Below, piece after piece: positions 1-61,127 of a stretch of DNA of 64,000 nt; the stretch's first letter is position 1; each line of letters begins with the position of its first letter. Below the pieces are notes generated by a model. It was not told the DNA's origin, did no database searches, and saw only the letters and a program-made list of their open reading frames with translations. This DNA is from a virus (taxonomy: Duplodnaviria > Caudoviricetes), in the IMG/VR virus record IMGVR_UViG_3300042866_001263, one strand, 5' to 3'. Made by a program: the position numbers and the translations under genes.

Positions 1-6
1 GAACCT

Positions 7-80
7 ACTCTCTTAGCTCAGTGGATTAGAGCACTTGACTACGGATCAAGGTGTCGTAGGTTCAAATCCTACAGAGAGTG
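7..80 (+). tRNA. tRNA-Arg (anticodon ACG), CCA not encoded
   Basis: Full cloverleaf: acceptor ACTCTCT/AGAGAGT, D-stem GCTC/GAGC, anticodon stem CTTGA/TCAAG with loop CT-ACG-GA, T-arm GTAGG-TTCAAAT-CCTAC. Confidence 0.95.
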
Positions 81-97
81 TTGTTCTAATAAAAACT

Positions 98-214
98 ATG
101 AATAAAATAAAAGGTGACTGTACTTGGTCTGAACAATTTGGATATATTTGGTTGTGTGTAAGTGAAATTATCAAAATGCAGATCCAGGGAGACAACTACC
201 AACCTTCCGTATAA
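98..214 (+). CDS. small hypothetical protein (38 aa, MNKIKGDCTWSEQFGYIW...)
   Basis: Hand-translated ORF between the tRNA and the late promoter; below the ORF-track cutoff. Confidence 0.45.
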   Translation: MNKIKGDCTWSEQFGYIWLCVSEIIKMQIQGDNYQPSV

Positions 215-217
215 ATA
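210..217 (+). promoter_or_regulatory. T4-type late promoter TATAAATA
   Basis: Exact T4 late consensus 40 nt upstream of the giant structural gene. Confidence 0.8.
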
Positions 218-256
218 ACTTGAAGGAATAAGTCACGCCGCAGGGTCTGTATAATC

Positions 257-46690: not shown

Positions 46691-47083
46691 ATGCCCGAAT
46701 TTCAGACGTTCAAAGATTTGAGCGTTACTTTTAAGAAGCATCCAGTCACTGATGATCTTGTCACAGTGAAGGATAAGGCTGCGATATCGCAGTCTATTGT
46801 TAATCTGCTTCTTACTAGTAAGGGTGAGAGATTATTTCAACCAAATTTGGGTTCTGGTATATACCGTAGTTTATTTGAACCTTTAGATTATGGTACTGCT
46901 GGTCTTATCCGAGCAGAGGTTGCTGACGTTCTAGAACGTTACGAACCAAGAATTGTTGTCAGAAAAATTATTTGTATGCCAGATTTTGACAATAATGGGT
47001 ATTCAATTGAGATTACCTATGAAATTCGTGGAAGAGAAGACACACCTGTAGCAGTCGAATTCTTTCTAGAGCGTACTCGATAA
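46691..47083 (+). CDS. gp25: baseplate wedge subunit, T4 gp25-like
   Basis: AISQSIVNLLLTSKGERLFQPNLGS...LERYEPRI motif. Confidence 0.93.
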   Translation: MPEFQTFKDLSVTFKKHPVTDDLVTVKDKAAISQSIVNLLLTSKGERLFQPNLGSGIYRSLFEPLDYGTAGLIRAEVADVLERYEPRIVVRKIICMPDFDNNGYSIEITYEIRGREDTPVAVEFFLERTR

Positions 47084-48879
47084 TGCCTTACACTCAACTT
47101 GCCAATTTAGACTTTAATGATATTAAAGTTGCTCTGAAAGAATATCTCAGAGCTCAATCTGAATTTACTGATTATGATTTTGAGGGTTCGGCATTATCGA
47201 ACCTAATTGACGTACTCGCCTATAACACCTACTACACGGCGTTTAACACCAATATGGTAGTCAATGAACTATTCATTGATTCTGCCACCTTGAGGGACAA
47301 CGTAGTGGCGATTGCGAAGCAATTAGGGTACAGACCAAAAAGTATAACGTCTCCAACGGCGTATATTTCTTTTTCTGTAAATTATACAAATACAACAACA
47401 GATACTCAGATCATTTTAAAGAAGGGCACAGGATTTGTTGCTTCTTACGATAATGTGTTATATCAGTATGTTGTTTTAGACGATGCGAAGGCACAAGTTG
47501 CAAATCAGACTGCAACATTTACTAATGTGCCAATTAGAGAAGGAAATCAACTTCTTAACACGTTTACAGTAAATAGTTCACAACAATCGCAGAGATTTAT
47601 TCTTGATAATGCGAATATTGACACAAATACAATTCAAGTAAAAGTATTCCCAACTGGTAGTGGATTTTCAGAGCAATACTTAGTTTCAGATAATATTCTT
47701 GGTGTAGATGGAACTTCCAAGGTATTTTTCTTAAATGAGATCGAAGATGAAAGATACGAACTCATCTTTGGTGATGGAGTACTAGGAAAGAAATTAGAAA
47801 ATGGAGCAGTGATTGAAGCTTCGTATATTGTAACATCAGGTCCAGCATCGAACGGTGTTAAGACATTTGTATTTTCTGGTGTTCTAGAAAATCAGGATGG
47901 ATCTACTGCTGGTCCTCTTTCAATTACAGTAAATTCGACTGTTCCTGCTTCTGGTGGAGAGGCAATCGAATCTACTAAGAAAATTAAGTTCAATGCACCA
48001 AAGTCATACGGGACACAAAATCGTGCTGTAACTGCCGATGACTATACTGCTATTGTTCGTAACATTTATCCAGCAACGAGTGATGTGATCATTTTTGGTG
48101 GAGAAGATCAAGTTCCACCACAATATGGAAAAGTCTTTATTGCTTTAAAACCAAATGATGCATCGTATATAACTTCATTCACAAAGAAAGAAATAATCAA
48201 GCAATTAAAGAATTTTATTGTTGCTTCAGTAGAACCAGTGATTGTAGATCCATCAATTCTATTTGTTGAATTGACAAGTAAGATTTACTACAATTCTTCA
48301 ATGACTTCCGATACTACTGCACAAATTAGAGATAAAGTTATAACTGCACTGCAAAATTATATCGATGTTTCCGATCTAGAAAAGTTTAATGGTAAGTTTA
48401 GATACAGTAAAGCAATTGGTGTTATTGATGAGGCAGATAAATCCATCAATTCCAACATTACTACTGTTACTATGAGGAAGGATTTTTATCCTCAACTAAA
48501 TTCCACCTTCTATTATGAGATATGTTTTCAGAATTCTTTTGACATAGATTGTGATGCTCCAGTCCTTTCTACGACTGGATTTAGAGTTACCGAGTATCCA
48601 AACTTTGATGTCTATCTTGAGGATAGGGGTGGCAAAATTGTCCTATATACACTAGATGCTATAACTGGTGAGAAAGTTGTCCTAGACAAGGAAGTTGGCG
48701 ATATTGATTATGCTAAAGGCGAATTAAAAATGTATGATTTAACGATCATAAAAGGAAGCTTCTTTGACAACAGAATATCAGTTAGAGTAAAACCATTATC
48801 TAATGATATCCAGGCATTCCGAGAGGTTTATCTTGATGTTGATATTGCTAATTCATCCTTTAGTGCATACAAAGAGTAA
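47083..48879 (+). CDS. gp6: baseplate wedge subunit, T4 gp6-like
   Basis: LDFNDIKVALKEYL...FTDYDFEGS...LAYNTYY...SATLRDNVV; QNRAVTADDY. Confidence 0.95.
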   Translation: MPYTQLANLDFNDIKVALKEYLRAQSEFTDYDFEGSALSNLIDVLAYNTYYTAFNTNMVVNELFIDSATLRDNVVAIAKQLGYRPKSITSPTAYISFSVNYTNTTTDTQIILKKGTGFVASYDNVLYQYVVLDDAKAQVANQTATFTNVPIREGNQLLNTFTVNSSQQSQRFILDNANIDTNTIQVKVFPTGSGFSEQYLVSDNILGVDGTSKVFFLNEIEDERYELIFGDGVLGKKLENGAVIEASYIVTSGPASNGVKTFVFSGVLENQDGSTAGPLSITVNSTVPASGGEAIESTKKIKFNAPKSYGTQNRAVTADDYTAIVRNIYPATSDVIIFGGEDQVPPQYGKVFIALKPNDASYITSFTKKEIIKQLKNFIVASVEPVIVDPSILFVELTSKIYYNSSMTSDTTAQIRDKVITALQNYIDVSDLEKFNGKFRYSKAIGVIDEADKSINSNITTVTMRKDFYPQLNSTFYYEICFQNSFDIDCDAPVLSTTGFRVTEYPNFDVYLEDRGGKIVLYTLDAITGEKVVLDKEVGDIDYAKGELKMYDLTIIKGSFFDNRISVRVKPLSNDIQAFREVYLDVDIANSSFSAYKE

Positions 48880-48883
48880 GTAG

Positions 48884-51800
48884 ATGGCAGTCAAGACCAA
48901 AAGAATTTCTACTCTTATTGAGTCACAACTTCCAGAGTTCATTTCTTCGGAATATGAACTTTTTGGTAAGTTTGTAGAGAAATACTATGAATCTCAAGAG
49001 GTTCAAGGAGGGCCACTTGATATCATCAGTAATATACAGAAATATCTAGATATTGATTATTACGAGAAGTCACTACTTAAGCAGAATACAATTCTAGTAT
49101 CATCTATTAATAATTCGGCAACTTCTATAACATTAGAGGATGCTTCTGGATTTCCAGAAAAAAATGGTTATCTTAAAATTGGTAATGAGATTATTTTTTA
49201 TGCAGAAAGAACTGGTAATGTAATCTCAGAATGCTTCCGAGGAGTAAGTGGAAATATTTCACTTGGAGATCTATACGAAAAATCAGCATTTACTACTACT
49301 AGTGCTGAATCGCATTCTTCTGGAGATCTTGTTCTTAACGTTAGCAATTTATTTTTATATGCTATTGTTAAAAATTTCGAATCGCAATATCTAGCGTCAT
49401 TTCCCGAAAAATACTTAAGAGGGGAAGTAGACAAAAGAACTCTGATTAAAAATATTCAGAAATTTTATAAGGCAAAGGGAACAGATAGTTCAATCAAGTT
49501 TATCTTCAATACAATTGTTACTCAAGATATTGAAGATAAACCATCTGTTTATAAGCCAAGAGATTTTACATATAAGTCTTCTGAATCTGATTGGATCAAC
49601 ATTTATGCTCTAAAAGTTAAAGTTGTATCTGGAAATCCAAAGACTTTAATAGGAAAGACCATTGTACAGTCTCCAACAGACGAGTATGGATATGCTTCTG
49701 CTACAGTTGATAATGTATTTGCTGATGGCACAGTTGATAATGAGCAAATATGGAATATTGTTCTTGCTCCAGAGACAGTCAACGGTTTATTCTCTGTATC
49801 GACAAAGACTAGATTAGAAAAAGACCTATTAGCATCCAGTGGATCAACAAAAAGAGTTAGTGTTTTCTCAACTCTTGGTTGGGATCAATCTGGGGAAATT
49901 TTAATTGATGATGAGATCATTAAGTTCTCTGATAAAAATGCTACTCAATTTATAATTGAAAGCAGAGGATCAACACCAGTTTTACATAGTAAAGATGCTT
50001 TTGTCTATAAACCAGTAGTTCTCAGTGGATCTGGTGTAAAACTAATTAGTTTAGGTATTGTTTATAATTTAATTCCAACAGATACACAACCATACTCATC
50101 TGTTGGCGATGAAATACAAATTTCTACACCTGGATTTGAAACTGCAGATCCAAAGATTGTAGTAACTGGAACTAATCAACCAAGATGGATATTAGGTCAA
50201 GGTAATCCTGTTAATATACCAACCAATCCAGCACTTGCTAGTAGTCTAGATGATGTGCCAACTGATGTTTCTGCAATTTTTGAGGATGACCAATACTATT
50301 ATATTGCAAGCTCTAGTTATCCATCATACAAAATTCTTGATGGATCTACAGTAGATCAACAGTTGCTAGATCAAAAGCAATTAAGAATACTAAGAAAATT
50401 TCCAACTAGAACCACTGAAGTCTATAAAACGCCAAAAAGAGATGTTGGTGTTCTTGTAAATGGCACTCCAATATTTAGTTTTAGAGATGAAGAGAGCATC
50501 CGTTTTGGAATACTTGAGGAAATTAAAGTAGATACTCAAGGAACTGGATATGATAAACCACCATTTGTTCTTTTGGATGGAGTACCAAACCAAGCAAGAG
50601 CAGTTTTATCTGGTCAAGTCGTAGAAAAAATTATTGTTGATACAAATACAGTTTTCCCAAGAACTCCAGAGGTAACTGTTACTTCGGGAAGAGATGCTGT
50701 TGTGAGAGCGGTGGTTACCAAAGGAAAAGTCACTAGTCTTATAATTGATAATCCTGGTGAATACTATTCTTCTCCACCTATTATAAGAATTAGAGATAAT
50801 GCTGGAAGAGGAAGATTTGCTGATTATACAGCAGTTGTAAACACAGACGGAAAGATTACCGATTTTGTGCAAAATGCTGAGGGTAACTTCTATAATCAAT
50901 CAACAGTTATTGTTGATGTAATTCCTGTTGGTCGTGGTGCATCTGGAATTCCATATCTGAAAGAATGGAACAAAAATAGATTTGCAAAGTATTCAACCAG
51001 ATTGGATACCGAATATGGATATATTTTCGAAAATTACAATAGTGTTTTAAAATATGGATATGGTCATGTTGCAAACCCAAAGGCATTAAGAGTTGCATTA
51101 AATGACAATATTAATATTGCTGGAGCAGAACCATCTACTAAGACCCACTCTCCAATAATTGGATTTGCTTATGATGGCAATCCAATTTATGGTCCTTTTG
51201 GACACCAGGATGCATTAAATTCACAGTCTCCTATTGTTAGGATGACATCTAGTTACAGTTTAAATAACAACCGCTCTCAGGGTCCATCACTAACAATATA
51301 TCCTATAGGATCATTCGTTAATGACTACAGATACATTCACAAAAGTGGATCACTAGATCAAAATAACGGTAGATTTTGTGTTACTCCAGATTACCCACAA
51401 GGAACATATGCGTACTTCTTAACAATAGATAGTAATCAAGTTCCACAGTTTCCATATTTTGTTGGAGAGAATTTTTATTCTCTTCCAGTAGATAGTAACT
51501 ATAATTCAAATATAAATCAGGCAGATATTCCTAAAAAGTCTAAGAGACTGTTTATTCCTGGTATGCCAAGAAATGGTGATGGAGTAATTGCTCAAATTGC
51601 TGAGGTAAAATCTGGAACTGTAGATTCGATCTCCATACTAAATTCATCAGACAATTTTTCTGTAAATTCAAAGGTTTATTTCGATAATTCTGGCACAGAA
51701 GGAAAAGAAGCAGCTACGGTTGTTTCTTTTGTAAAGGGAAAACCAGTAAATTATTTGTACAGTAAAGAAAATAAAGTTGTACAATTAACTACTGTTCAAA

Positions 51801-54800
51801 CTGCCTACTTATTTGCAAATGACACCCTTAGTCAACCAGCTTCTGGTGCATATGGTGAAATAGTTGGTACTGTAGCAAATGATAATCTAATTGTACTTAA
51901 AAATGTCATCGGAACTTTCAATGGCACTGGTACATTCTCTGCTGCAATTAAAACTTTCTCTATCTTAATTGATCAAAACAGTTCATATACAGAAGGAGCT
52001 ATTCTAAGCTTAACAGATGGAATAAATCTTCCAGTAGCTACCGCACAAGTATTAGAGGGAACATCTAGTCAAAATATCGTTAAAATTAAGGTTTTAACTG
52101 GAACTTGGAGTGTAGATGATAATTATTTCATTCAATCTAGCGATCTTTTTAATACCTCTGGTTCTAGAATTGTAACTCTTACATCTCTAAGTGATGGTTT
52201 AGTTCCATTTGACGTTAACCAAAGTGTTGCATTAGTAGAAACTACGGTTGACCATGGATTGGGAATTGGGGATGAAGTCAAGGTTGATATTTTACCAAAT
52301 GATGTAACGAAGACAAAGACGTATTATCTAAGAAAAAGACTATATCAAACCGTAAAATTAAAGGCACCATCATATCAGTCATCAATTAATTATACTGGTG
52401 TCGGTAGATTTGAAATCTTAAATGGTGGGGCATTTTATACCCCAGGAACATACACAAACGTTTCACTAACAGGAGGTTCTGGCAGTGAAGCAAAAGCTAC
52501 TATTGTTGTGTCTTCTTCTGGTGTTGTATCTTCTGTCACCTTACAAGATGGTGGATCTGGATATAGAAAGGCAGATTACTTGAGTGTTTCTGATGAGGCA
52601 TTAAGTAGATCAAATACTGCTACATCTGGAAGCTCCAGATTGACTTTATATGTAGATCATGCTGGATTTGCAATAGGATCGACAAAGTTAATCGTTGATA
52701 GTACAATAGGAATTTCTGTTGGAGATTTATTGGGTGTTGGAAAAGAGGTAGTTCAAGTTTCATCAATACTAAACAACACCATTACCGTTCTTAGAGCAAA
52801 AGATGGTACAGTAGAAGGAGACCATTTTAATGGAGAAATAGTATATCTCTACAAACCAAAATATAATTTTACAAATAATTTTCAACTATCTCCATCTAGT
52901 TTATCTGGACGCATCAAAAATTATAATCCAGAAACTCAAGAAGTCATTATCACTTTTGATTATGCAACACAGAAAACGAATGCTGAAAAAGTAGAACTTA
53001 CTACCAGTTTCTTTGATTCGAGTGTTCCACAAAGATTAGTTGCAATTGATTCGATTGAAGATGTATCATACAAGTTCGAATTTTCTGCAGATAATGTAAA
53101 TTTTGTTTCAAATCCAAATATTGATTTACAAGAATATTACAATTATAAATTTGATACTTCACATTCATCATTAACTGGCACTTATTTTGATATAAGTCCC
53201 AGTAAGAATTTTAACATCATTACTGAAGAAAAAATTTCATCTGTAATTCTTCCAGGAAATCCTGGATCATTTACATATGTAAAATTTGGATTTGGATCCG
53301 CTTTATCTGAAAATAACTATTCAACTAAAAAGGGAACTCAGTTCTCCAATTTCTATTATTTTGATAAAAATTCAATAGTCGATTCCGAAGGAAAGTACTT
53401 TAAAATAATTACTGATCCATTACAGGGAACTAAAAAAGTAACATATGTTACTCCAAATAGATTTGTATACCAACTAAATTCAACTCCACTTTGGGATGGT
53501 TCTGGAGTAATTACATATACAACAAGTGGTGAATTTGCAATTGGTCAGATTGATCAGATTAAAATGATTAATTTGGGATTGAACTATAAAAAAGTACCAG
53601 TAATAATTGGTTGTGATCCAACAAGAAATTACAGAGCAAAAGCAACTGTTTTATACGATACATCAACTAATACCATAACCGATGTTAGAGTTGACGATAC
53701 TGGATCTAATTATATAAATCCAAGAATTATTATAACAAAGGGTGATGGTGTTGATGCAAGTTTCAATATAATTGTTAGAGATGGCAAAATATTTTCAATC
53801 GTTGTAGATAATCCTGGGAAGGGATATACTTTTGCTCCAGAAATCTCAATTATAGAAGGATCTGTTGTAGCATACGCAGAAAGTACAAGTATTGGTGTTC
53901 CTCAAAGTGTAAGAATACTACAAAATGGAGCATCTTTCCACCTTGATAAAACTATATCTTCATCGTTCACTTCGAAATATATTTTTGGATTATCTAGTAT
54001 TGTCGGAAATTATCAAAGAGGTGAAATTGTAGTACAAAAAATTAATAATGTTGAAGTAGCAAGAGCTGTAGTTTCTGAGTGGAGATCTGGATCCAACTTA
54101 TTAAAAGTAGAGAAAATAACAGGAATTTTCAGAAGAGGATATCCAGTTCAATCTATTTTAACAAATGCTTCTGGATTGATAAAATCTGTTTTTGTCTCAT
54201 CGTTCCAGGATGAGATTGCCAGTTTCTATGATAATCTTGGGTATTATTCTTCAGATAGAGGTAAAATCGGTGTATCCAACCAAAAGATTTTAGATAGTCA
54301 TTTCTATCAAGATTATTCCTATGTTATAGAATCAAAAACTCCAATTGAAAAATGGAGAGACTTAATCAAGTCAACAACACATCCAGCTGGATTTAAACTC
54401 TTTGGTCAGGTTGATGTTGAATCAACTGCTCAATCTGAGATGCCAGGGCAGTCACATAATACTAATTCTCACTTTAGTATAATTCAATTGTGGGATCCAA
54501 ATAAAAATAAAATTACAGTTGAAAACACAAAGAGGACAATTACTCAGATTGTTCAAAAAGTAGAAAATCAAAGAATACGTAGAGGTATTGGATCTGCTGC
54601 TCCATCAGAATTTAACTTTAGTGAATATAGAGCATTTGAAATTAAACTATCTGCTCCATTTGATGGATATTATGATACAGATGGCATATTACAAGGAACA
54701 ACAATTTTCCAATTAAGAAATTCAAATACCAACGCACCATTTACTCCATTAAGTGCTACCAATTTAATTATCACATTAGATGGAATACTGCAGGAACCAG

Positions 54801-57800
54801 GAGTAGCATATACAGTTCAAAATGATACAATTGTTTTCTCTAAACCCCCTCTTGGTGCTGGATTAGAAAGAACTGGAAATAATTTGACAGATCTTACTTC
54901 CTACAGAGGAGTAACATTCTATGGTAAGTATTTTGCGTTTAAGGATAATCAATATAATAATAGATACCTCAAAAAGATTAGGAATATTTTCCAGCGTAGT
55001 GGAAGATGGTTAGATGCTGCTAATCAAATTGATAGAAATAGAACTTTTATTATCGAAGAGGCAGTTGGATATGGAAAGAATAAGTATCCAACATTAGACT
55101 GGAGTACGAAGTTAGACGATTATCAAAGAGATATTGGTTATATTCTAGATGCATATCAGCATGATATTAGATTTGGTGGAAATATAAAAACAGTAGATTA
55201 TATTGGAATTTTTAGAAACAATAGTGACTATGATTACATAACCAAAAATAAAACAAAATCTTTAGATATATTTGAATATGCTACAAGACTAGCTTCTCTT
55301 GCAATTAGAAATTGGGACATTGTTGAAGAAAATGTATCTTATACACAAGGATCTACGACTGTAACTGTATCCAATACAGATAAATTGGTTGTAGGAATGT
55401 ACGTAAGTTCTGGAAATGCATTTTCACAGAACACAAGGATTACTTCAATTAATAATTCTACACAAATTACTGTTTCAAATGCTGCTTTAATAAATTCAGT
55501 TTCAATTTCTGGATCTCCATATAATGCAACATTCTATCTAAATGGAATTAATAATGGAACATACTATGATGCTTCAAATTTAATTCTTGCAAATAAACTC
55601 TATTTACAAGAAGAAGTTAGCGAATACATTTACGATAATTATAGTTTACCAACAACAGATAAACAAAAATGTAAGAGAGATTTGGGATATTTGATTGACG
55701 CTGTTGTTTATCACTTACGTTTTGGTGGAAATGAAAAAATTGTAGAATTTGCAAGATCTTACTACGAATTTTATGGTTATCCATATGGTGAAAAACTAAC
55801 ACGTATAAACAGATCTCAAGAAGAAACTAATGCTGCAATAGATGCTTGGGAAACTCTTGGTGATTTGATGATATTGGCAATGAAGAACCAGTTATCTTCT
55901 GGTGCCTATACACTAATTACTCCAGTTATTGACAATACAATTTTATCAGATCCAATTTTACCTCTATGCGAAGAAGTTACATCTAGTATCAATACGATGA
56001 TCGATATCGTAAAGGATATTATATCAGATGGTGCTGGAATTGTTCAGATAACTCCAATCAATTTAAATAAGTCTGGATATTGGACAAATACTTTAACTTA
56101 CTCAAATTATAATATTATCAACGATCCTCTCTTACTAGCACAAGAATGCGATAATGTGATTTCTTCAGTGGATTCGCTATATGCAAATGTGAAAGATATA
56201 CTTGATAAAAAAACGGTACAAAGAAGTTTACCAGATTATATTGATGGATCAAATAAAGTATTTGAGTTGTATTGGGAAGATGGAACAGAAGTTATTACGG
56301 ATGAAGATGAGGACTTATTCTTAACTATTAATGCTGTTCTACAGAGACCAAAATACAATCAAGAATATCCAAGATTTGATTCGTATTATATTGATAGAAC
56401 TGTAATTCCTAATCTACTTGTATTTGATGTAGCTCCTATATGGGATCAAGATTTTAGTGCGAAAAGTATAGGTGAAGCAACAGCAGTAGAAAAAGTTGTT
56501 GGTATTGGGGTAGGTAACTACAAGAGATTGACAATAGATTATAATTTGGTAAATGATGTTAAATCTGGTCCATTCTTAATTTTAGATGTAGAAGACTATA
56601 CAGTTCAGAATATCGAAGAACCAGATTTCATGTATGTCTTCCTAGATGGTGTACTTCAAAGACAAGGTTACTCGTATACAGTATCTGGTCCCAATATTAC
56701 TTTTAATGTTCCAATATTAAAAGAAATGAAAATTGATATTAGATATTTGTATGGTAGAGATATTGGACAAGTACTTAATATTTTTGATTTCAATCCAGAT
56801 ACTTTCTATGCCAGATCAAAGGTTAATCTAACTGTTACTTCTGGACTGGAAGATTTCATTAAGTATTACTGGATGGGAGATAAAATAGGAACACCAATTC
56901 ATGCCTACCAAGAAGGTACAAATGGAAGGTGTGAAGTTATAGGAGAAATTTCAAATATACTTTCTAATGGCAATTCACTATCATTTGATGTTTTTGGTAA
57001 TAATTATGCGATAGATGTATCTAAACCAGTTTTCTTTGCTGTAAGAGGATTTTATAATATTAACACTCAGTTAACTATTTCAAATGCAACAGTTGCAAAA
57101 GAAACAGATGAGTCTGGAAGATTGATCCTATCAGATCTCAATCAAATCTGGTCTGGAACAATTATCGGAAAGTCATACAGACTTCCATTTATCGGTCTTT
57201 CGAATAGTGATAAAATCCGTATTGATGGACAAGATTCTTTCAGAGAAATAAAGAAACTTCCAGGAACAACAACAAGTAAAGAACATAGAAATTATCAACA
57301 ACTTTCAAATTCTTTATTTGGTTCCGTTGATATTGAAACATATAATGGAATAACCAGAGGAGAAGGATTAAGTGTCGTATGTACAATTCAAAATGGAAAA
57401 GTCGTTGCACTTACTTGGAATCAAAGAAGTTATGATCCAATAACTCAACCAACTGCATATCAGTATTATAATCCACCAATTTTACAATTTATTCCTCAAG
57501 ATGGTAATGGTGGTGGTGCAAGAGCTAATGTACTTGTAAGTAAAGGACAAGTTATTAGCGTAGATTTAATTGATGGAGGATCTGGATATACTCAAGCGCC
57601 CAAAATTGTTGTAGCGAGAGGTTATGATGTTTTAAACACCAGGGATATTGGAGTATCTCTAATCAATATCAGCATGAGTCCATATGTGGAAAATGCTGGA
57701 TTGAATATTATATCAACTATAAATGTTCTTGGAAATCAAGTTGCCTCAGTTTTCTCAGTTACTTCTGTTGTATTAGAAAGTCCAATTAATACTGATAGAG

Positions 57801-59245
57801 TAATAACTGCACAAATACAGTTACTTGAAAATACTGGATCAAATCTATCAAGAAAGCATATAGAATTTTTTGGTAGAGTTTCTCCAAATAGAGATGAAAT
57901 AGAAGTAATTGATATTTTCTACAATAAAACTCAAGTAATTAATCAAATTTCTGGCAGAGTTGCTGACATTGTTTCTACATCAGTTCTTACAACTAACAGA
58001 CAAATTACCACATCTTTTGAAAATCTAATTCCAAATGATGCTTTAACTAATGTCAATTACTATGCTACTGGTGCTTATCTAGATGTAGATTTAGCAATTA
58101 CTGACAATATTGTTTATGTTTCTGATACATCTAAATTTAAATCCAATGGTTATTTACTAATAGGCGATGAAATTGTAAGATACTACAGAAAACTAAATGA
58201 TCGTTTCCTTAAAGTACAAAGGGGTCAATCAAACACAACTGCAAAGTTATGGCTAGCTGGAACATTCTTACGTCAAATACCAGATCCAATTTCTACTGTA
58301 TTTGGTGGCGTTTCTATTATCGAATCTCAGTCTCAGATTGTTAGCATTCAGGGTGGAATTGGAACTGTGAATCTGTCACAGAGAACTACTCAGACACAAA
58401 ATGTAATTCCATCTCCAACTATTATATCAACTTCAAACTTTATTGAAATTGGAATTCTTCCTGTAGTTTCATTAACTTCTACATCTAATCTTACTGCAAA
58501 TACATTTATTGTATTTGATATTAATATTATTTCATCCGTTCAATCCTCGTATTATGGATTACAACATTCTTCTATAGTTCAATCAATACAATCTGAATTA
58601 GATATCAGTAAAGGATCATTAGAATTTTTACTAATTCCACCACCTTCTGGAGTTGTAGATGGTTATGTGGAGAGTATTTTTATTTCTGATCCACTTCAAA
58701 CTAGATTAAATGGATTTATAGATCTTGTAAACACCAATGATCAATATTCAGTAACTTTGAGAAATGGAACTTCAGTAGTTATTAGAAACTCTGTATTTGG
58801 AGTTGATACTCAATATATCGGTGACTATACTCCCACAAACGCTGGACATAGAATATCTCACTTCTCTGGAATATTTGACGATGGATCTTCTGGTGTTTCT
58901 GGATTGACAATAAACGAGATTGATACATACTATCCTTCCCTAACATTACAAGATTTTACTGATAGGGCAAATTCTAGTTACACTATTTCTGGAGAATACT
59001 TCAATCTTCTTCCACCATCTATTCAAAATCCAGTAACATTATCACAATCATCTGGATCTATTGGATCTACAATATCAGTTCAAAAAACAACATATTTTAA
59101 ATCAAGCGGATACATTTTAACAGGTAATGGTGGAGTAATTCAGTATACTGGAAAAACTTCAACATCATTTACTGGATGTTCTGTGGTTAGGGGATCGAAT
59201 ACGTTAAGTGTTGGCACAGAAATCATTCCATTCCAATTGACATAA
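48884..59245 (+). CDS. gp7: baseplate wedge initiator, cyanophage gp7-like giant protein (3453 aa)
   Basis: QLPEFISSEY...YYESQE N-terminus, FYKAKGT, PIIGFAYDGNPIYGP (YHYH-like), HPAGFKLFG; lies between gp6 and gp8. Confidence 0.85.
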   Translation: MAVKTKRISTLIESQLPEFISSEYELFGKFVEKYYESQEVQGGPLDIISNIQKYLDIDYYEKSLLKQNTILVSSINNSATSITLEDASGFPEKNGYLKIGNEIIFYAERTGNVISECFRGVSGNISLGDLYEKSAFTTTSAESHSSGDLVLNVSNLFLYAIVKNFESQYLASFPEKYLRGEVDKRTLIKNIQKFYKAKGTDSSIKFIFNTIVTQDIEDKPSVYKPRDFTYKSSESDWINIYALKVKVVSGNPKTLIGKTIVQSPTDEYGYASATVDNVFADGTVDNEQIWNIVLAPETVNGLFSVSTKTRLEKDLLASSGSTKRVSVFSTLGWDQSGEILIDDEIIKFSDKNATQFIIESRGSTPVLHSKDAFVYKPVVLSGSGVKLISLGIVYNLIPTDTQPYSSVGDEIQISTPGFETADPKIVVTGTNQPRWILGQGNPVNIPTNPALASSLDDVPTDVSAIFEDDQYYYIASSSYPSYKILDGSTVDQQLLDQKQLRILRKFPTRTTEVYKTPKRDVGVLVNGTPIFSFRDEESIRFGILEEIKVDTQGTGYDKPPFVLLDGVPNQARAVLSGQVVEKIIVDTNTVFPRTPEVTVTSGRDAVVRAVVTKGKVTSLIIDNPGEYYSSPPIIRIRDNAGRGRFADYTAVVNTDGKITDFVQNAEGNFYNQSTVIVDVIPVGRGASGIPYLKEWNKNRFAKYSTRLDTEYGYIFENYNSVLKYGYGHVANPKALRVALNDNINIAGAEPSTKTHSPIIGFAYDGNPIYGPFGHQDALNSQSPIVRMTSSYSLNNNRSQGPSLTIYPIGSFVNDYRYIHKSGSLDQNNGRFCVTPDYPQGTYAYFLTIDSNQVPQFPYFVGENFYSLPVDSNYNSNINQADIPKKSKRLFIPGMPRNGDGVIAQIAEVKSGTVDSISILNSSDNFSVNSKVYFDNSGTEGKEAATVVSFVKGKPVNYLYSKENKVVQLTTVQTAYLFANDTLSQPASGAYGEIVGTVANDNLIVLKNVIGTFNGTGTFSAAIKTFSILIDQNSSYTEGAILSLTDGINLPVATAQVLEGTSSQNIVKIKVLTGTWSVDDNYFIQSSDLFNTSGSRIVTLTSLSDGLVPFDVNQSVALVETTVDHGLGIGDEVKVDILPNDVTKTKTYYLRKRLYQTVKLKAPSYQSSINYTGVGRFEILNGGAFYTPGTYTNVSLTGGSGSEAKATIVVSSSGVVSSVTLQDGGSGYRKADYLSVSDEALSRSNTATSGSSRLTLYVDHAGFAIGSTKLIVDSTIGISVGDLLGVGKEVVQVSSILNNTITVLRAKDGTVEGDHFNGEIVYLYKPKYNFTNNFQLSPSSLSGRIKNYNPETQEVIITFDYATQKTNAEKVELTTSFFDSSVPQRLVAIDSIEDVSYKFEFSADNVNFVSNPNIDLQEYYNYKFDTSHSSLTGTYFDISPSKNFNIITEEKISSVILPGNPGSFTYVKFGFGSALSENNYSTKKGTQFSNFYYFDKNSIVDSEGKYFKIITDPLQGTKKVTYVTPNRFVYQLNSTPLWDGSGVITYTTSGEFAIGQIDQIKMINLGLNYKKVPVIIGCDPTRNYRAKATVLYDTSTNTITDVRVDDTGSNYINPRIIITKGDGVDASFNIIVRDGKIFSIVVDNPGKGYTFAPEISIIEGSVVAYAESTSIGVPQSVRILQNGASFHLDKTISSSFTSKYIFGLSSIVGNYQRGEIVVQKINNVEVARAVVSEWRSGSNLLKVEKITGIFRRGYPVQSILTNASGLIKSVFVSSFQDEIASFYDNLGYYSSDRGKIGVSNQKILDSHFYQDYSYVIESKTPIEKWRDLIKSTTHPAGFKLFGQVDVESTAQSEMPGQSHNTNSHFSIIQLWDPNKNKITVENTKRTITQIVQKVENQRIRRGIGSAAPSEFNFSEYRAFEIKLSAPFDGYYDTDGILQGTTIFQLRNSNTNAPFTPLSATNLIITLDGILQEPGVAYTVQNDTIVFSKPPLGAGLERTGNNLTDLTSYRGVTFYGKYFAFKDNQYNNRYLKKIRNIFQRSGRWLDAANQIDRNRTFIIEEAVGYGKNKYPTLDWSTKLDDYQRDIGYILDAYQHDIRFGGNIKTVDYIGIFRNNSDYDYITKNKTKSLDIFEYATRLASLAIRNWDIVEENVSYTQGSTTVTVSNTDKLVVGMYVSSGNAFSQNTRITSINNSTQITVSNAALINSVSISGSPYNATFYLNGINNGTYYDASNLILANKLYLQEEVSEYIYDNYSLPTTDKQKCKRDLGYLIDAVVYHLRFGGNEKIVEFARSYYEFYGYPYGEKLTRINRSQEETNAAIDAWETLGDLMILAMKNQLSSGAYTLITPVIDNTILSDPILPLCEEVTSSINTMIDIVKDIISDGAGIVQITPINLNKSGYWTNTLTYSNYNIINDPLLLAQECDNVISSVDSLYANVKDILDKKTVQRSLPDYIDGSNKVFELYWEDGTEVITDEDEDLFLTINAVLQRPKYNQEYPRFDSYYIDRTVIPNLLVFDVAPIWDQDFSAKSIGEATAVEKVVGIGVGNYKRLTIDYNLVNDVKSGPFLILDVEDYTVQNIEEPDFMYVFLDGVLQRQGYSYTVSGPNITFNVPILKEMKIDIRYLYGRDIGQVLNIFDFNPDTFYARSKVNLTVTSGLEDFIKYYWMGDKIGTPIHAYQEGTNGRCEVIGEISNILSNGNSLSFDVFGNNYAIDVSKPVFFAVRGFYNINTQLTISNATVAKETDESGRLILSDLNQIWSGTIIGKSYRLPFIGLSNSDKIRIDGQDSFREIKKLPGTTTSKEHRNYQQLSNSLFGSVDIETYNGITRGEGLSVVCTIQNGKVVALTWNQRSYDPITQPTAYQYYNPPILQFIPQDGNGGGARANVLVSKGQVISVDLIDGGSGYTQAPKIVVARGYDVLNTRDIGVSLINISMSPYVENAGLNIISTINVLGNQVASVFSVTSVVLESPINTDRVITAQIQLLENTGSNLSRKHIEFFGRVSPNRDEIEVIDIFYNKTQVINQISGRVADIVSTSVLTTNRQITTSFENLIPNDALTNVNYYATGAYLDVDLAITDNIVYVSDTSKFKSNGYLLIGDEIVRYYRKLNDRFLKVQRGQSNTTAKLWLAGTFLRQIPDPISTVFGGVSIIESQSQIVSIQGGIGTVNLSQRTTQTQNVIPSPTIISTSNFIEIGILPVVSLTSTSNLTANTFIVFDINIISSVQSSYYGLQHSSIVQSIQSELDISKGSLEFLLIPPPSGVVDGYVESIFISDPLQTRLNGFIDLVNTNDQYSVTLRNGTSVVIRNSVFGVDTQYIGDYTPTNAGHRISHFSGIFDDGSSGVSGLTINEIDTYYPSLTLQDFTDRANSSYTISGEYFNLLPPSIQNPVTLSQSSGSIGSTISVQKTTYFKSSGYILTGNGGVIQYTGKTSTSFTGCSVVRGSNTLSVGTEIIPFQLT

Positions 59246-59300: not shown

Positions 59301-61127
59301 ATGGCTGCTATTATCTCTGATAAATTTAGAATTTTTAATGCGAAGCAATTTCTAGAATCGCTAACTGAAGGTGCTACGGATACTGGTTCCGAGCGTAGTA
59401 GAATGTACTTCTTCGTGGGTCGCCCACAACCTTGGAGAGCATATTTAGAAATTTATTCCAAAGGATCTGTTGCTTTTACAGCAGGACACAAGATCTTTGT
59501 TGGAACAACTGCTGGTCAGTATGGTGCCTCTGCTTTTAAAGCAACTATCGCTGCAGTTTATGATACTGCCCTCCTTCTAACTGACGTTTTTGGAACTAGT
59601 GGTGTTAATTCCACTCCACCTGTAGGAAGCACAATTACTGCAACAGCAGATAATGGAGCAACTATTGTTACAAACGCAACCGCCGTTACAGGTATCTATC
59701 GTTATGCTACCGAGGATGTGCCACCTCTTCCTCTAGATAACCAAGCAGAAGTAATTTCCATCTACGACGAAATTATTGCTGCTAAGAGAATTACCGACAC
59801 TTTTGCTAGAGCAGTCATTAGACGTTATAATTGGGACTTAGTTGCTAACCCCAAGTTTGATATGTGGAAGCCAGACTACTCTGCTACTCCAGGTGGCGGT
59901 GGTCAAATCGGAAAAGCAGCAGCAACTGGTGCAACTTCAATTGCTGATGCTAAATTCTATGTAATGAACTCCGCATACGAAGTATTCAAGTGCCTCTATA
60001 ATGGTCAAAATCCTTCAAATGCTAGTGGTCAAAACGCAACCGAAGAGCCAATTACAACTGGTGCTAATTATGCATCAGGAACTGGTCTCTATACAGAAAC
60101 AACTGGTGCTGGATATATTTGGAAATATATGTACACCATCCCAACTGATGATGTACTAAGATTCCTATCATCAGACTTTAAGCCAATCGTTCTTCCATCA
60201 AACACTTCACGTAGTACTGTTACAGCATCTGCTGTTGCTGGAGCATGTGATGTTGTTCTGATTGAAGATGCTGGATCTGGTCTTCCTGCTTCACAAACTC
60301 TCTATACATCCATCAAGGGAGATGGAACAGGTGGTATTGTTAAATTCACTACAAATGGTGGTGGAAATATCACATCTGCTTCAATTCAAGCAAGAGGATC
60401 TGGTTATACATATGCAAACGTACTACTAGGAAATGGCAACCTATTCAGTAATGTAGGTCTTACAACTGCGGTTGCTACTACTGCAGGATGGAAAGGTGCT
60501 CTAGAAGTTATCCTTCCACCTCTTGGCGGTCATGGTAAAGATCATGAAGCAGAATTAAATGCTAAGAGAATTATGACGAATATTCGTCTAACATACTCAG
60601 AAGGTTCAGGAGACTTCCCAGTTGATAACGATTTCCGCAGAATTGGTATTCTCAAGGACCCATATAATTATGGCACAACAACTTTCTCAACTGCTGATAC
60701 ACTAACTGGTCTAAAAGCAATCAAGATTACTGGTGCAACTGCAGACTTCATCCCAGACGAAAGAATTCAACAAACAGTAAGTGGTGGAACTGCTTATGGT
60801 ACTGTTGTTTCTTGGACCCTCGATAGTGGTTCAACAACTGCTGGTGTTCTGAAGTATATCCAGACAAATGATGCTCATGCTGACAGCGGTGTTGTCAGAG
60901 CTTTTGCTAGCAACGGAGCAAACGCCGTTACTGGTGCTTTGTCAAGTAGTTCTGGCACTGTCAATACCGCATACGCTGGTTCACTTCTAGGTATGACTTT
61001 TGCTGCTGGTCTTGCAAATCCAGAGATCGAAAATAATTCTGGCGAGATTATCTACGTAGAAAATCGTCGTCTAATTACTCGTGCTCCAGACCAGATTGAA
61101 GATATCAAACTCGTAATCGAGTTCTGA
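59301..61127 (+). CDS. gp8: baseplate wedge subunit, T4 gp8-like
   Basis: MAAIISDKFRIFNAKQFLES, YFFVGRPQPW, VYKCLYN-like FKCLYNG, GYIWKYMYTI, DFRRIGILKDP. Confidence 0.92.
   Translation: MAAIISDKFRIFNAKQFLESLTEGATDTGSERSRMYFFVGRPQPWRAYLEIYSKGSVAFTAGHKIFVGTTAGQYGASAFKATIAAVYDTALLLTDVFGTSGVNSTPPVGSTITATADNGATIVTNATAVTGIYRYATEDVPPLPLDNQAEVISIYDEIIAAKRITDTFARAVIRRYNWDLVANPKFDMWKPDYSATPGGGGQIGKAAATGATSIADAKFYVMNSAYEVFKCLYNGQNPSNASGQNATEEPITTGANYASGTGLYTETTGAGYIWKYMYTIPTDDVLRFLSSDFKPIVLPSNTSRSTVTASAVAGACDVVLIEDAGSGLPASQTLYTSIKGDGTGGIVKFTTNGGGNITSASIQARGSGYTYANVLLGNGNLFSNVGLTTAVATTAGWKGALEVILPPLGGHGKDHEAELNAKRIMTNIRLTYSEGSGDFPVDNDFRRIGILKDPYNYGTTTFSTADTLTGLKAIKITGATADFIPDERIQQTVSGGTAYGTVVSWTLDSGSTTAGVLKYIQTNDAHADSGVVRAFASNGANAVTGALSSSSGTVNTAYAGSLLGMTFAAGLANPEIENNSGEIIYVENRRLITRAPDQIEDIKLVIEF

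What the first reader, a model, noticed from the sequence alone, without database searches (positions are those of the whole stretch)
55000..56210. Same phycobiliprotein-like module inserted in the gp7 baseplate protein
Seen in sequence: gp7 has two copies of the repeat. One reads DAANQIDRNRTFIIEEAVGYGKNKYPTL...DYQRDIGYILDAYQHDIRFGGN (Cys replaced by Tyr, aa ~2080). The other reads DASNLILANKLYLQEEVSEYIYDNYS...KCKRDLGYLIDAVVYHLRFGGN (Cys2263), followed by PLCEEVTSSINTM and QECDNVISSVDSL. Inference: the module is mobile between virion genes about 50 kb apart, and the baseplate as well as the fibre could display it. The Cys-to-Tyr copy is a natural negative control for chromophorylation.
Basis: partly seen in the sequence, partly recalled or inferred. 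Interest (0 to 1): 0.7.

Follow-up and report, generated by a model that had tools for sequence, protein, structure and literature searches.

The report
Nested phycobiliprotein-fold domains in cyanophage baseplate protein
The giant baseplate protein of this T4-like cyanobacterial virus contains two domains, one inserted inside the other, that are distant but real relatives of its host's light-harvesting pigment proteins and keep pigment-attachment-type cysteines. Whether the virus particle carries pigment and senses light is untested, but can now be tested.

Summary
The 3453-aa ORF at the gp7 position (48884-59245) holds two copies of the fibre module: one with Tyr2080 in a Y-Q-R-D motif, one with Cys2263 in C-K-R-D. 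A profile built only from the six fibre copies finds both (E 3e-13 and 8e-15) and nothing else in the window.

The phycobiliprotein likeness is real:
- Module profiles hit only phycobiliproteins among solved-structure sequences (E 5e-5), with Cys on Cys84 and Arg-Asp on Arg86/Asp87.
- The AlphaFold model superposes on the whole globin core (Z 14-16, about 2.4 A over about 144 residues).

Three points are new:
- Copy 2 plus a small beta domain is inserted inside copy 1.
- Both domains keep an invariant Cys that lands on the beta-153/158 bilin site.
- The two copies are old, vertically inherited paralogues, so they were not recently moved from the fibre.

C, R and D are 92-96% conserved across 1582 modules. 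Copy 1 lost the Cys in 28 of 29 orthologues and copy 2 in 6 of 29. Every named phage record carrying the module is a cyanophage or an unnamed marine virus, and the module is absent from Pelagibacter phage HTVC008M. Bilin binding is not shown.

This scan had already reported such domains in other genes of this genome and in at least 10 other genomes. I found no published description.

The parts
48884..59245 (+). Giant gp7-position baseplate ORF, 3453 aa
   Evidence: ORF list and translation. PHROG virion structural and baseplate wedge families. Flanked by gp25-like, gp6-like and gp8-like genes.
54992..55309 (+). Phycobiliprotein-fold domain 1, helices A to G (aa 2037-2142). Tyr2080 (nt 55121-55123) stands where Cys84 would be, followed by Q-R-D.
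   Evidence: Fibre-only HMM E 2.8e-13. hhalign against host phycobiliproteins: probability 73%, P 3e-5, Tyr aligned on Cys82. VIA-align Z about 16, rmsd 2.4 A, model 1..412 on beta chains 25..177. Its own orthologue profile has no significant hit among solved-structure sequences.
55316..55537 (+). Small beta domain (aa 2145-2218), inserted together with domain 2 into the G-H loop of domain 1
   Evidence: Strands in the AlphaFold model. It resembles insertion domains of phage tailspikes and fibres: Arthrobacter phage Bridgette Z 8.6, phi92 endosialidase Z 6.3.
55553..56029 (+). Phycobiliprotein-fold domain 2, contiguous (aa 2224-2382). Cys2263-K-R-D (nt 55670-55672) is on helix E. Cys2362 (nt 55967-55969) opens the last helix.
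   Evidence: Fibre-only HMM E 8e-15. The profile of 29 orthologues hits only phycobiliproteins, best E 3.6e-4. hhalign probability 88%, P 3e-6. VIA-align Z 14-15.6, rmsd 2.1-2.4 A, model 195..352 on chains 34..172/177. Single-domain model: the top ~50 Foldseek entries are all phycobiliproteins, TM 0.5-0.66.
56138..56203 (+). Last helix (H) of domain 1 (aa 2419-2440), lying after the inserted domain 2. It begins with the invariant Cys2422 (nt 56147-56149).
   Evidence: Alignments of domain 1 run from model residue 1 to 412 and cover beta chains to their C-terminus. The helix at model residues 390-411 has pLDDT 80-93. Cys393 of the segment is invariant in 29 orthologues.
257..13003 (+). Giant fibre ORF (4248 aa) carrying six full copies of the same module (aa about 692-1688, nt about 2330-5320)
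   Evidence: PHROG tail fibre families.
46691..48879 (+). gp25-like (46691-47083) and gp6-like (47083-48879) baseplate wedge genes directly upstream
   Evidence: PHROG 261 at E 3e-53 and PHROG 219 at E 9e-206.
59301..61127 (+). gp8-like baseplate wedge gene directly downstream
   Evidence: PHROG 438 at E 7e-173. The S-B43 orthologue is annotated 'baseplate wedge'.

Best explanation
SHOWN:
- gp7 aa 2037-2440 folds into two phycobiliprotein-type globin domains that are distant homologues of the host's light-harvesting phycobiliproteins.
- The N-terminal X-Y hairpin that pairs alpha with beta subunits is missing.
- Domain 2 and a small beta domain are inserted into the G-H loop of domain 1, so the last helix of domain 1 follows domain 2.
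- Both domains are ancient residents of gp7. They belong to a large family of virion-protein modules that, wherever a host is named, occurs only in cyanophages.

INFERRED:
- The family's three best-conserved residues are exactly the C-x-R-D that holds the Cys84 bilin in phycobiliproteins. So the modules most likely bind a bilin, made by the host or by phage PebS/PcyA, during assembly in the cytoplasm.
- In this gp7 the candidate sites are Cys2263 (Cys84 type, domain 2 only) and Cys2362 and Cys2422 (beta-153/158 type, one per domain). The beta-153/158 type is the site served by T-type lyases such as the CpeT that many cyanomyoviruses encode.
- Domain 1 has lost the Cys84-type site (Tyr2080).

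SPECULATIVE: pigment displayed at the baseplate rim and on the fibres lets the particle respond to light, for example by gating adsorption.

My odds: fold and homology 0.9; bilin bound at one or more sites 0.4; a role in light-dependent adsorption 0.15.
For: Sequence:
- The profile of the 8 window modules hits only phycobiliproteins among 177,635 solved-structure sequences. The best is CpcA at E 5.2e-5, with Cys on Cys84 and R-D on Arg86/Asp87.
- The copy-2 orthologue profile gives the same result, E 3.6e-4.
- hhalign against ten host phycobiliproteins: P 3e-6 for copy 2 and 3e-5 for copy 1.
- Pfam PF00502 gives weak hits.

Fold:
- Model pLDDT 86, pTM 0.81.
- VIA-align Z 14-16, rmsd 2.0-2.9 A over 130-145 residues, covering beta chains 25-177.
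- In the unbiased search of 48,161 chains, phycoerythrin (Z 14.5) and ApcE (Z 13.1) come first, then sensor globins at Z 9-12.
- For the single-domain model, every one of the top ~50 Foldseek entries is a phycobiliprotein.

Conservation:
- In 1582 modules from 150 representative proteins, Cys is kept in 93.8%, Arg in 92.0% and Asp in 96.1%, more than any other position.
- In gp7, C, R and D tend to be lost together.
- Cys2362 and Cys2422 are invariant in 29 orthologues. By end-point arithmetic they fall on beta-Cys153/158, and hhalign places them there too.

Distribution:
- tblastn found 146, 353 and 461 phage records; all are cyanophages or unnamed marine viruses.
- HMM scans found none in HTVC008M, T4, KVP40 or RM378.
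- The only named viruses among the significant BFVD hits are cyanophages; the other hits are uncultured or unnamed phages.

Phenotype:
- P-HM2 (5 modules) does not adsorb in the dark (PMC6628666), and several marine cyanomyoviruses adsorb light-dependently (PMC2984593); that S-PM2 (11 modules) is one of them rests on my own recall.
- P-SSM2 and P-SSP7 (no modules) adsorb in the dark (PMC6628666).
- T-type lyases serve beta-Cys153 (PMC10452541).
- cpeT lies 1.5-2 kb upstream of the module-bearing fibre ORF in S-PM2 and in a second phage.
Against: - No bilin has been shown on any virion protein.
- The sequences fail Pfam's own cut-off for PF00502: 17 bits against 22.2 for the whole gp7, and only 5 of 29 copy-2 orthologues hit at E<=1.
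- Copy 1 has no significant sequence hit to phycobiliproteins with its own orthologue profile.
- The Cys84-type Cys is dispensable in gp7. It is absent from copy 1 in 28 of 29 orthologues and from copy 2 in 6 of 29.
- The placement of Cys2362/2422 on beta-Cys153 is not significant by sequence alone (P 0.06-0.08; no hit with the short profile).
- The window and its closest isolate S-B43 have no cpeT, and no bilin reductase was found in S-B43; the window was not scanned for a reductase.
- P-SSM2 encodes a bilin reductase but has no modules.
- The link with adsorption phenotype rests on four phages that are not independent.
Confidence: 0.5

Rival explanations
1. The domains are phycobiliprotein-derived but carry no pigment. 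The fold was recruited as a rigid decoration, spacer or adhesion domain of baseplate and fibres. C-x-R-D and the helix-capping cysteines are kept for another reason, such as another ligand, contacts between domains, or disulfides that stabilise an extracellular particle.
For: - gp7 orthologues tolerate loss of the whole C-x-R-D (copy 1 in 28 of 29, copy 2 in 6 of 29), while H-x-R-F-G-G-N stays invariant.
- S-B43 has modules but no cpeT or bilin reductase.
- P-SSM2 has bilin genes but no modules.
- The X-Y hairpin and hence normal phycobiliprotein assembly are missing.
- From my own knowledge, no pigmented cyanophage preparation has been reported. I found none in the searches.
Against: - Family-wide, the three most conserved positions of 1582 modules are exactly the ligand-contacting C, R and D of phycobiliproteins, at 92-96%. 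In phycobiliproteins these residues serve the bilin and not the fold.
- About half of all cysteines in those giant proteins are this one Cys.
- C, R and D are lost together, as expected for one site.
- Pigment would be invisible at ordinary titres. My estimate: 1e11 particles per ml with 100 bilins each gives an absorbance of about 0.002.
Confidence: 0.35
2. One reading: the module is a mobile cassette recently exchanged between the fibre gene and gp7.
For: The same module family occurs in both genes. Module numbers in gp7 differ between phages: 2 here and in P-HM2, 6 full plus 1 partial match in the 3340-aa S-PM2 ORF that I take to be its gp7. P-HM2 gp7 copy B groups with fibre copies at support 95/95.
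Against: The gp7 copies 1 and 2 of 15 phages form two separate clades with similar inner branching (95/93 and 89/92). The window's fibre copies lie outside both. The gp7 copies are only 25-34% identical to the fibre copies. No repeats or mobile-element features were sought or seen.
Confidence: 0.05
3. The likeness to phycobiliproteins is convergent or a modelling artefact: a helical repeat that happens to carry C-x-R-D.
For: Identity to phycobiliproteins is only 14-23%. Foldseek E-values are weak, 5e-3 to 0.2. Helical bundles often give Z up to about 13 by arrangement alone (note). Only helices B to E align significantly by sequence.
Against: - Three independent profiles put phycobiliproteins alone at the top.
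- A fold search that does not use Foldseek gives the same family first, then its known relatives the sensor globins.
- 130-145 residues superpose at 2.0-2.9 A, covering all helices A to H.
- The motif sits in the same helix at the same register.
Confidence: 0.05
4. The domains act as haem-binding or other cofactor-binding sensor globins and not as biliproteins.
For: Sensor globins (pXO2-61, globin-coupled sensors, RsbR, photocobilin proteins) follow the phycobiliproteins in the fold search at Z 9-12. A His precedes the G-G-N turn in both gp7 copies.
Against: That His is not conserved family-wide: the consensus there is A-Y-D-L-L-Y-G-G-N. Sequence profiles hit no haem globin. The conserved triad is the bilin triad.
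Confidence: 0.05

Closest known systems
Light-harvesting phycobiliprotein subunits (Pfam PF00502). Closest by sequence is C-phycocyanin alpha (e.g. 4f0t_A); closest by fold are phycoerythrin and cryptophyte beta chains (e.g. 2vjh_B, 4lm6_D, 5aqd_M).
   Same: Globin-type helices A to H. C-x-R-D on helix E in register with Cys84/Arg86/Asp87. A Cys 19 residues before the end of the last helix, as at beta-Cys153/158. A long G-H loop, as in phycoerythrin beta.
   Different: 14-23% identity and below Pfam's cut-off. No X-Y hairpin, so no alpha-beta monomer or ring assembly is expected. Embedded, nested or tandem, inside giant virion proteins. An invariant R-F-G-G-N turn. No pigment has been shown.
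Phycobiliprotein-like domain of the core-membrane linker ApcE (4xxi, Z 13.1)
   Same: A phycobiliprotein fold built into a very large multi-domain protein and interrupted by an inserted loop. From my own knowledge, it attaches its bilin without a lyase, which would be a precedent for self-attachment.
   Different: ApcE is a host phycobilisome protein, and from my own knowledge it uses a Cys at a different position. The gp7 insertion is a whole second domain plus a beta domain.
Bilin biosynthesis-associated globins, BBAGs (PMC10151467)
   Same: Distant phycobiliprotein paralogues outside light harvesting. BBAG-1 and BBAG-3 keep C-x-R-D and bind bilins without lyases.
   Different: BBAGs are small stand-alone proteins of mostly heterotrophic bacteria, encoded next to haem oxygenase and reductase genes. 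I did not compare their sequences with the modules.
T4 gp7 baseplate wedge protein
   Same: Gene position between gp6 and gp8. PHROG baseplate wedge matches in the N-terminal half.
   Different: From my own knowledge T4 gp7 is about 1030 aa. An HMM scan of the whole T4 genome finds no such module.

Membership tests
Phycobiliproteins (Pfam PF00502) | Score above Pfam's gathering cut-off (22.2 bits) | tested here: not met
   The whole gp7 scores 17.0 bits, E 0.006. Of the 29 copy-2 orthologues, 5 hit at E<=1, best 0.017. In other phages the best single hit is 18.1 bits, and only summed hits in one 4904-aa ORF pass the cut-off.
Phycobiliproteins (Pfam PF00502) | Globin-type fold with helices A, B, E, F', F, G, H | tested here: met
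   Z 14-16, rmsd 2.0-2.9 A, 130-145 residues aligned to beta chains 25-177. The family ranks first in the unbiased search. TM 0.5-0.66 for the single domain. These are predicted models, not experimental structures.
Phycobiliproteins (Pfam PF00502) | Cys84-x-Arg-Asp bilin site on helix E | tested here: met
   Copy 2: C2263-K-R-D aligned on Cys84/Arg86/Asp87. Copy 1: the Cys is replaced by Tyr2080 while R-D is kept, so copy 1 does not meet this feature.
Phycobiliproteins (Pfam PF00502) | N-terminal X-Y helix hairpin that forms the alpha-beta monomer | tested here: not met
   Structural alignments start at chain residue 23-34. Loop and the beta domain precede domain 2.
Phycobiliproteins (beta subunits) | Second bilin Cys (beta-153/155/158) at the start of the last helix | tested here: inconclusive
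   By range arithmetic, model Cys333 and Cys393 fall 19 residues before the aligned C-terminus, as do beta-Cys153 and beta-Cys158. hhalign puts Cys on Cys, but at P 0.06-0.08. The short profile has no hit among solved-structure sequences. Both Cys are invariant in 29 orthologues.
Phycobiliproteins | Covalently bound bilin chromophore | not testable with these tools
   This needs spectroscopy or mass spectrometry of virions or of the recombinant domain.
BBAG bilin-binding globins (PMC10151467) | Gene next to haem oxygenase or ferredoxin-dependent bilin reductase genes | tested here: not met
   gp7 lies between baseplate genes. S-B43 has no reductase.
BBAG bilin-binding globins (PMC10151467) | Sequence closer to BBAGs than to phycobiliproteins | not tested
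T4-type gp7 baseplate wedge protein | Position between gp6 and gp8 in the baseplate gene block, and wedge-family similarity | tested here: met
   PHROG 261 and 219 upstream, 438 downstream. PHROG baseplate wedge families match gp7 aa 159-289, 591-971 and 1588-1664.

The most novel reading that the evidence does not exclude
Cyanomyovirus particles are biliproteins. Bilins are attached during assembly to phycobiliprotein-fold domains on the baseplate rim (gp7) and fibres, with the phage's own T-type lyase CpeT serving the beta-153-type cysteines. The pigment acts as the photoreceptor behind the light-dependent adsorption of phages such as S-PM2 and P-HM2. That would also explain why phages of nearly phycobilisome-free Prochlorococcus carry pebS and cpeT.
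Probability: 0.15. Interest if true: 0.95.

Novelty: new variant of a known kind. Interest (0 to 1): 0.72.

Why it matters
Two old puzzles of cyanophage biology become directly testable. The first is why adsorption of some cyanomyoviruses needs light; the literature attributes this to unknown light-induced changes in receptors or tail fibres (PMC6628666). The second is what the phage-encoded bilin lyase CpeT and the bilin reductases are for. A light-harvesting protein fold recruited into a virion, kept with its pigment-binding residues in roughly 1400 protein clusters, would be the first candidate photoreceptor on a virus particle. Even if no pigment is bound, this is a clear case of a host-type photosynthesis fold reused as a structural module. 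It also shows an unusual domain-inside-domain architecture in a baseplate protein.

Tried and rejected
- Own genome: none is held for this window, so cpeT, pebS and ho1 could be checked only in the window (tblastn, none) and in relatives.
- The search for related loci with the eight-module alignment found no conserved stretch to search with. With the copy-2 alignment it used a single narrow pattern and found one locus, a phage contig inside a Synechococcus MAG. This is a weak test of absence from bacteria.
- The search among proteins of similar length gave only fragments.
- The protein atlas gave no usable hit.
- A 35-position profile of the Cys-led last helix hit nothing among solved-structure sequences.
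- Global hhalign gave a meaningless alignment.
- The copy-1 profile alone is not significantly similar to phycobiliproteins.
- A possible counter-example was resolved. Module proteins labelled 'Candidatus Nanopelagicaceae' MAG are 73% identical over their full length to the S-RSM4 short tail fibre, so they are mis-binned cyanophage contigs.
- P0055 (a 2916-aa, 16-module representative protein) also hit non-cyanophage records: 4 Methylophilales, 2 Roseobacter and 1 Pelagibacter phage. The one displayed, Roseobacter phage CRP-603, matches residues 29-91, outside the modules. I did not see the others individually.
- No model coordinates were available, so pocket geometry and Cys-Cys distances (the disulfide question) could not be measured.
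Full report
WHAT IS THERE

The window is part of a T4-like cyanomyovirus. ORF 48884-59245 (3453 aa) lies between a gp25-like gene, a gp6-like gene and a gp8-like baseplate wedge gene. It matches PHROG virion and baseplate wedge families. ORF 257-13003 (4248 aa) is a giant fibre.

A profile built only from the six fibre copies finds gp7 aa 2043-2154 (E 2.8e-13) and aa 2228-2345 (E 8e-15), and hits no other ORF in the window.

IS IT PHYCOBILIPROTEIN-LIKE?

By sequence:
- A profile of the eight window modules, searched against all solved-structure sequences, returns only phycobiliproteins. The best hit is C-phycocyanin alpha at E 5.2e-5. Profile positions 8-66 lie on residues 38-103, which are helix B, the loop and helix E. 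The module Cys is on Cys84 and R-D is on Arg86/Asp87.
- A profile of gp7 copy 2 from 29 orthologues (IMG/VR loci) does the same: all 40 hits are phycobiliproteins, best E 3.6e-4.
- I took ten real phycobiliprotein genes from a marine Synechococcus genome. Profile-profile comparison with them gives probability 88% (P 3e-6) for copy 2 and 73% (P 3e-5) for copy 1. Tyr2080 lies on the Cys column.
- Copy 1 alone has no significant hit among solved-structure sequences.
- Pfam's own cut-off for PF00502 is not reached.

By fold:
- An AlphaFold model of aa 2030-2460, made without templates, has pLDDT 86 and pTM 0.81.
- Foldseek lists almost only phycobiliproteins, but with weak E-values.
- VIA-align gives Z 14-16 at rmsd 2.0-2.9 A over 130-145 residues, covering beta-chain residues 25-177. 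That is the whole globin core without the X-Y hairpin.
- A search of 48,161 chains that does not rely on Foldseek puts phycoerythrin (Z 14.5), ApcE (Z 13.1) and allophycocyanin first. Sensor globins and photocobilin proteins follow at Z 9-12. This is the evolutionary neighbourhood described for phycobiliproteins in PMC10151467.
- A separate model of domain 2 (pLDDT 84.5) gives phycobiliproteins in every one of the top ~50 entries, TM 0.5-0.66.

I conclude that this is true, distant homology (about 0.9). The modules fall outside the family as Pfam delimits it.

NEW ANATOMY

The structural alignments are of two kinds. Some run over model residues 195..352, which is domain 2 and is contiguous. 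Others run over 1..412, which is domain 1: residues 1-112 plus the helix at 390-411. So domain 2 and a small beta domain (aa 2145-2218) are inserted into the G-H loop of domain 1. The beta domain resembles tailspike insertion domains.

Their cysteines, Cys2362 and Cys2422, are invariant in all 29 orthologues. Each lies 19 residues before the model residue that aligns with the C-terminus of beta chains. That is exactly where beta-Cys153 (172-aa phycocyanin) and beta-Cys158 (177-aa phycoerythrin) lie (host sequences).

Read directly, the host sequence C-A-S-L-N-S-E-I-G-T-Y-F-D and the gp7 sequence C-E-E-V-T-S-S-I-N-T-M-I-D share C, S, I, T and D in register. hhalign puts Cys on Cys, but not significantly (P 0.06-0.08), and the short profile finds nothing by itself. 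This equivalence is therefore inferred and not shown.

IS THE SITE CONSERVED?

The family has 1370 representative proteins at E<=1e-3 among 1.84 billion, with up to 34 module stretches in one protein. In 1582 modules from the best 150 representatives, Cys is present in 93.8%, Arg in 92.0% and Asp in 96.1%. These are the three best-conserved positions. 1431 modules have all three. One caveat applies: these proteins were selected with a profile that contains the motif.

About half of all cysteines in those proteins are this one Cys.

gp7 is the exception:
- Copy 1 has Tyr, Phe or Val in place of Cys in 28 of 29 orthologues, and most of these have lost Arg too.
- Copy 2 has lost the Cys in 6 of 29 orthologues. 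All of C, R and D are gone in three of these; in the other three the Asp remains.
- H-x-R-F-G-G-N and the two helix-capping cysteines stay invariant.

So in gp7 the beta-153-type Cys is the better-conserved candidate site. The Tyr copy is a degenerate paralogue and not a clean negative control.

MOBILE?

In a maximum-likelihood tree of 41 modules, the copy 1 sequences of 15 phages form one clade (95/93) and the copy 2 sequences another (89/92), with similar inner branching. The window's fibre copies lie elsewhere. The two copies are old paralogues inherited within gp7.

Deeper shuffling does exist. P-HM2 gp7 copy B groups with fibre copies. Module numbers also differ between phages: 2 here and in P-HM2, and 6 full plus 1 partial match in the 3340-aa S-PM2 ORF that I take to be its gp7.

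HOSTS

- tblastn with three different queries finds 146, 353 and 461 phage records among 50,697. All are Synechococcus or Prochlorococcus phages, 'Cyanophage', or a few unnamed marine viruses.
- HMM scans of whole genomes find nothing in Pelagibacter phage HTVC008M, which belongs to the same family (Kyanoviridae), nor in T4, KVP40 or RM378. P-HM2 has 5, S-PM2 11 and S-B43 3.
- In the library of predicted viral structures, the only named viruses among the significant matches are cyanophages; the rest are uncultured or unnamed phages.
- Proteins labelled as coming from an actinobacterial MAG turned out to be mis-binned cyanophage fragments.

HOW IT MIGHT WORK

Shown: the fold, the homology, the nested layout, the conservation and the host range.

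Inferred: the conserved residues are ligand-contacting residues in phycobiliproteins and not fold-determining ones, so a bilin is the most economical ligand. Bilins and lyases are present in the cytoplasm where virions assemble. BBAGs attach bilins without lyases (PMC10151467), and from my own knowledge ApcE does too.

T-type lyases serve beta-Cys153 (PMC10452541). Many cyanomyoviruses encode CpeT:
- P-HM2 and S-PM2 do.
- In S-PM2 and in a phage contig of a Synechococcus MAG, cpeT lies 1.5-2 kb upstream of the module-bearing fibre ORF.
- S-B43 and the window have no cpeT.
- P-SSM2 has a bilin reductase but no modules.

P-HM2 does not adsorb in the dark (PMC6628666). Light-dependent adsorption is also reported for several marine cyanomyoviruses (PMC2984593); that S-PM2 is one of them rests on my own recall. 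Both phages have modules. P-SSM2 and P-SSP7 adsorb in the dark and have none (PMC6628666). That is four of four, but the phages are few and related to one another.

Pigment would be invisible at normal titres. My estimate is an absorbance of about 0.002 at 1e11 particles per ml with 100 bilins each.

LITERATURE AND EARLIER NOTES

Three full-text searches found no description of phycobiliprotein-like domains in phage virion proteins. Earlier notes of this scan report the same kind of domain in the fibre of this window, in a long tail fibre beyond the window, and in at least 10 other genomes. Two of these notes mention nesting and a second cysteine, and that made me test both here.

VERDICT

These are phycobiliprotein-fold domains of a new, virion-borne kind. 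Pigment binding is plausible (about 0.4) but unproven.

Noticed in passing
L071 (Synechococcus phage S-B43, MN018232.1 118130-136807): In the closest isolate, gp7 is split by an inversion exactly at the module. A 2162-aa N-terminal protein next to gp6/gp25 ends with a module copy. On the other strand, a 1390-aa protein next to gp8 begins with a module copy followed by domain 2. The break coincides with the G-H loop of domain 1, where the insertion sits in the window's gp7.
   Followed up: partly
window 51128-51445 (gp7 aa 749-854): A YHYH domain (Pfam PF14240, E 4.5e-30) lies inside the baseplate protein.
   Followed up: no
window 55316-55537: The beta domain between the two globin domains resembles insertion domains of phage tailspikes and fibres: Arthrobacter phage Bridgette Z 8.6, phi92 endosialidase, and the K1 lyase.
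   Followed up: no
L072 (S-PM2, AJ630128.1 161500-177500) and L073 (G001:C1:150000-169999): In two phages cpeT lies 1.5-2 kb upstream of, and on the same strand as, the giant module-bearing fibre ORF, separated from it by small ORFs. In S-PM2 these include a 2OG-Fe(II) oxygenase, and tRNA genes surround cpeT. The window starts with a tRNA-Arg (6-81) just upstream of its fibre ORF, so the equivalent region lies beyond the window.
   Followed up: partly
L072 (AJ630128.1): The record annotates 16 tRNA features inside the open 3779-aa CDS S-PM2p218. ARAGORN finds the tRNA cluster about 5 kb upstream instead, so the feature coordinates in the record appear to be shifted.
   Followed up: yes
L055 / G001:C1 (JBJBBP010000001.1, 193,981 bp): A contig of a 'Synechococcus sp.' MAG is in fact a cyanomyovirus-sized phage genome. 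It carries giant module-bearing ORFs, cpeT and two bilin reductase genes.
   Followed up: partly
P0075, P0193 (NCBI MFZ9725364.1, MGA1433309.1): Partial proteins deposited as 'Candidatus Nanopelagicaceae bacterium' MAG are 73% identical over their full length to the S-RSM4 short tail fibre, so they are mis-binned cyanophage contigs.
   Followed up: yes
P0031-P0180 (representative proteins): Of the 150 best representatives, 101 have no Cys-led last-helix motif, and these include proteins with 20-33 modules. The family therefore has at least two architectures, and the beta-153-type Cys is not universal.
   Followed up: partly
L068 (Prochlorococcus phage P-SSM2, NC_006883): P-SSM2 encodes a bilin reductase, yet it has no module and no cpeT by HMM scan.
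   Followed up: partly
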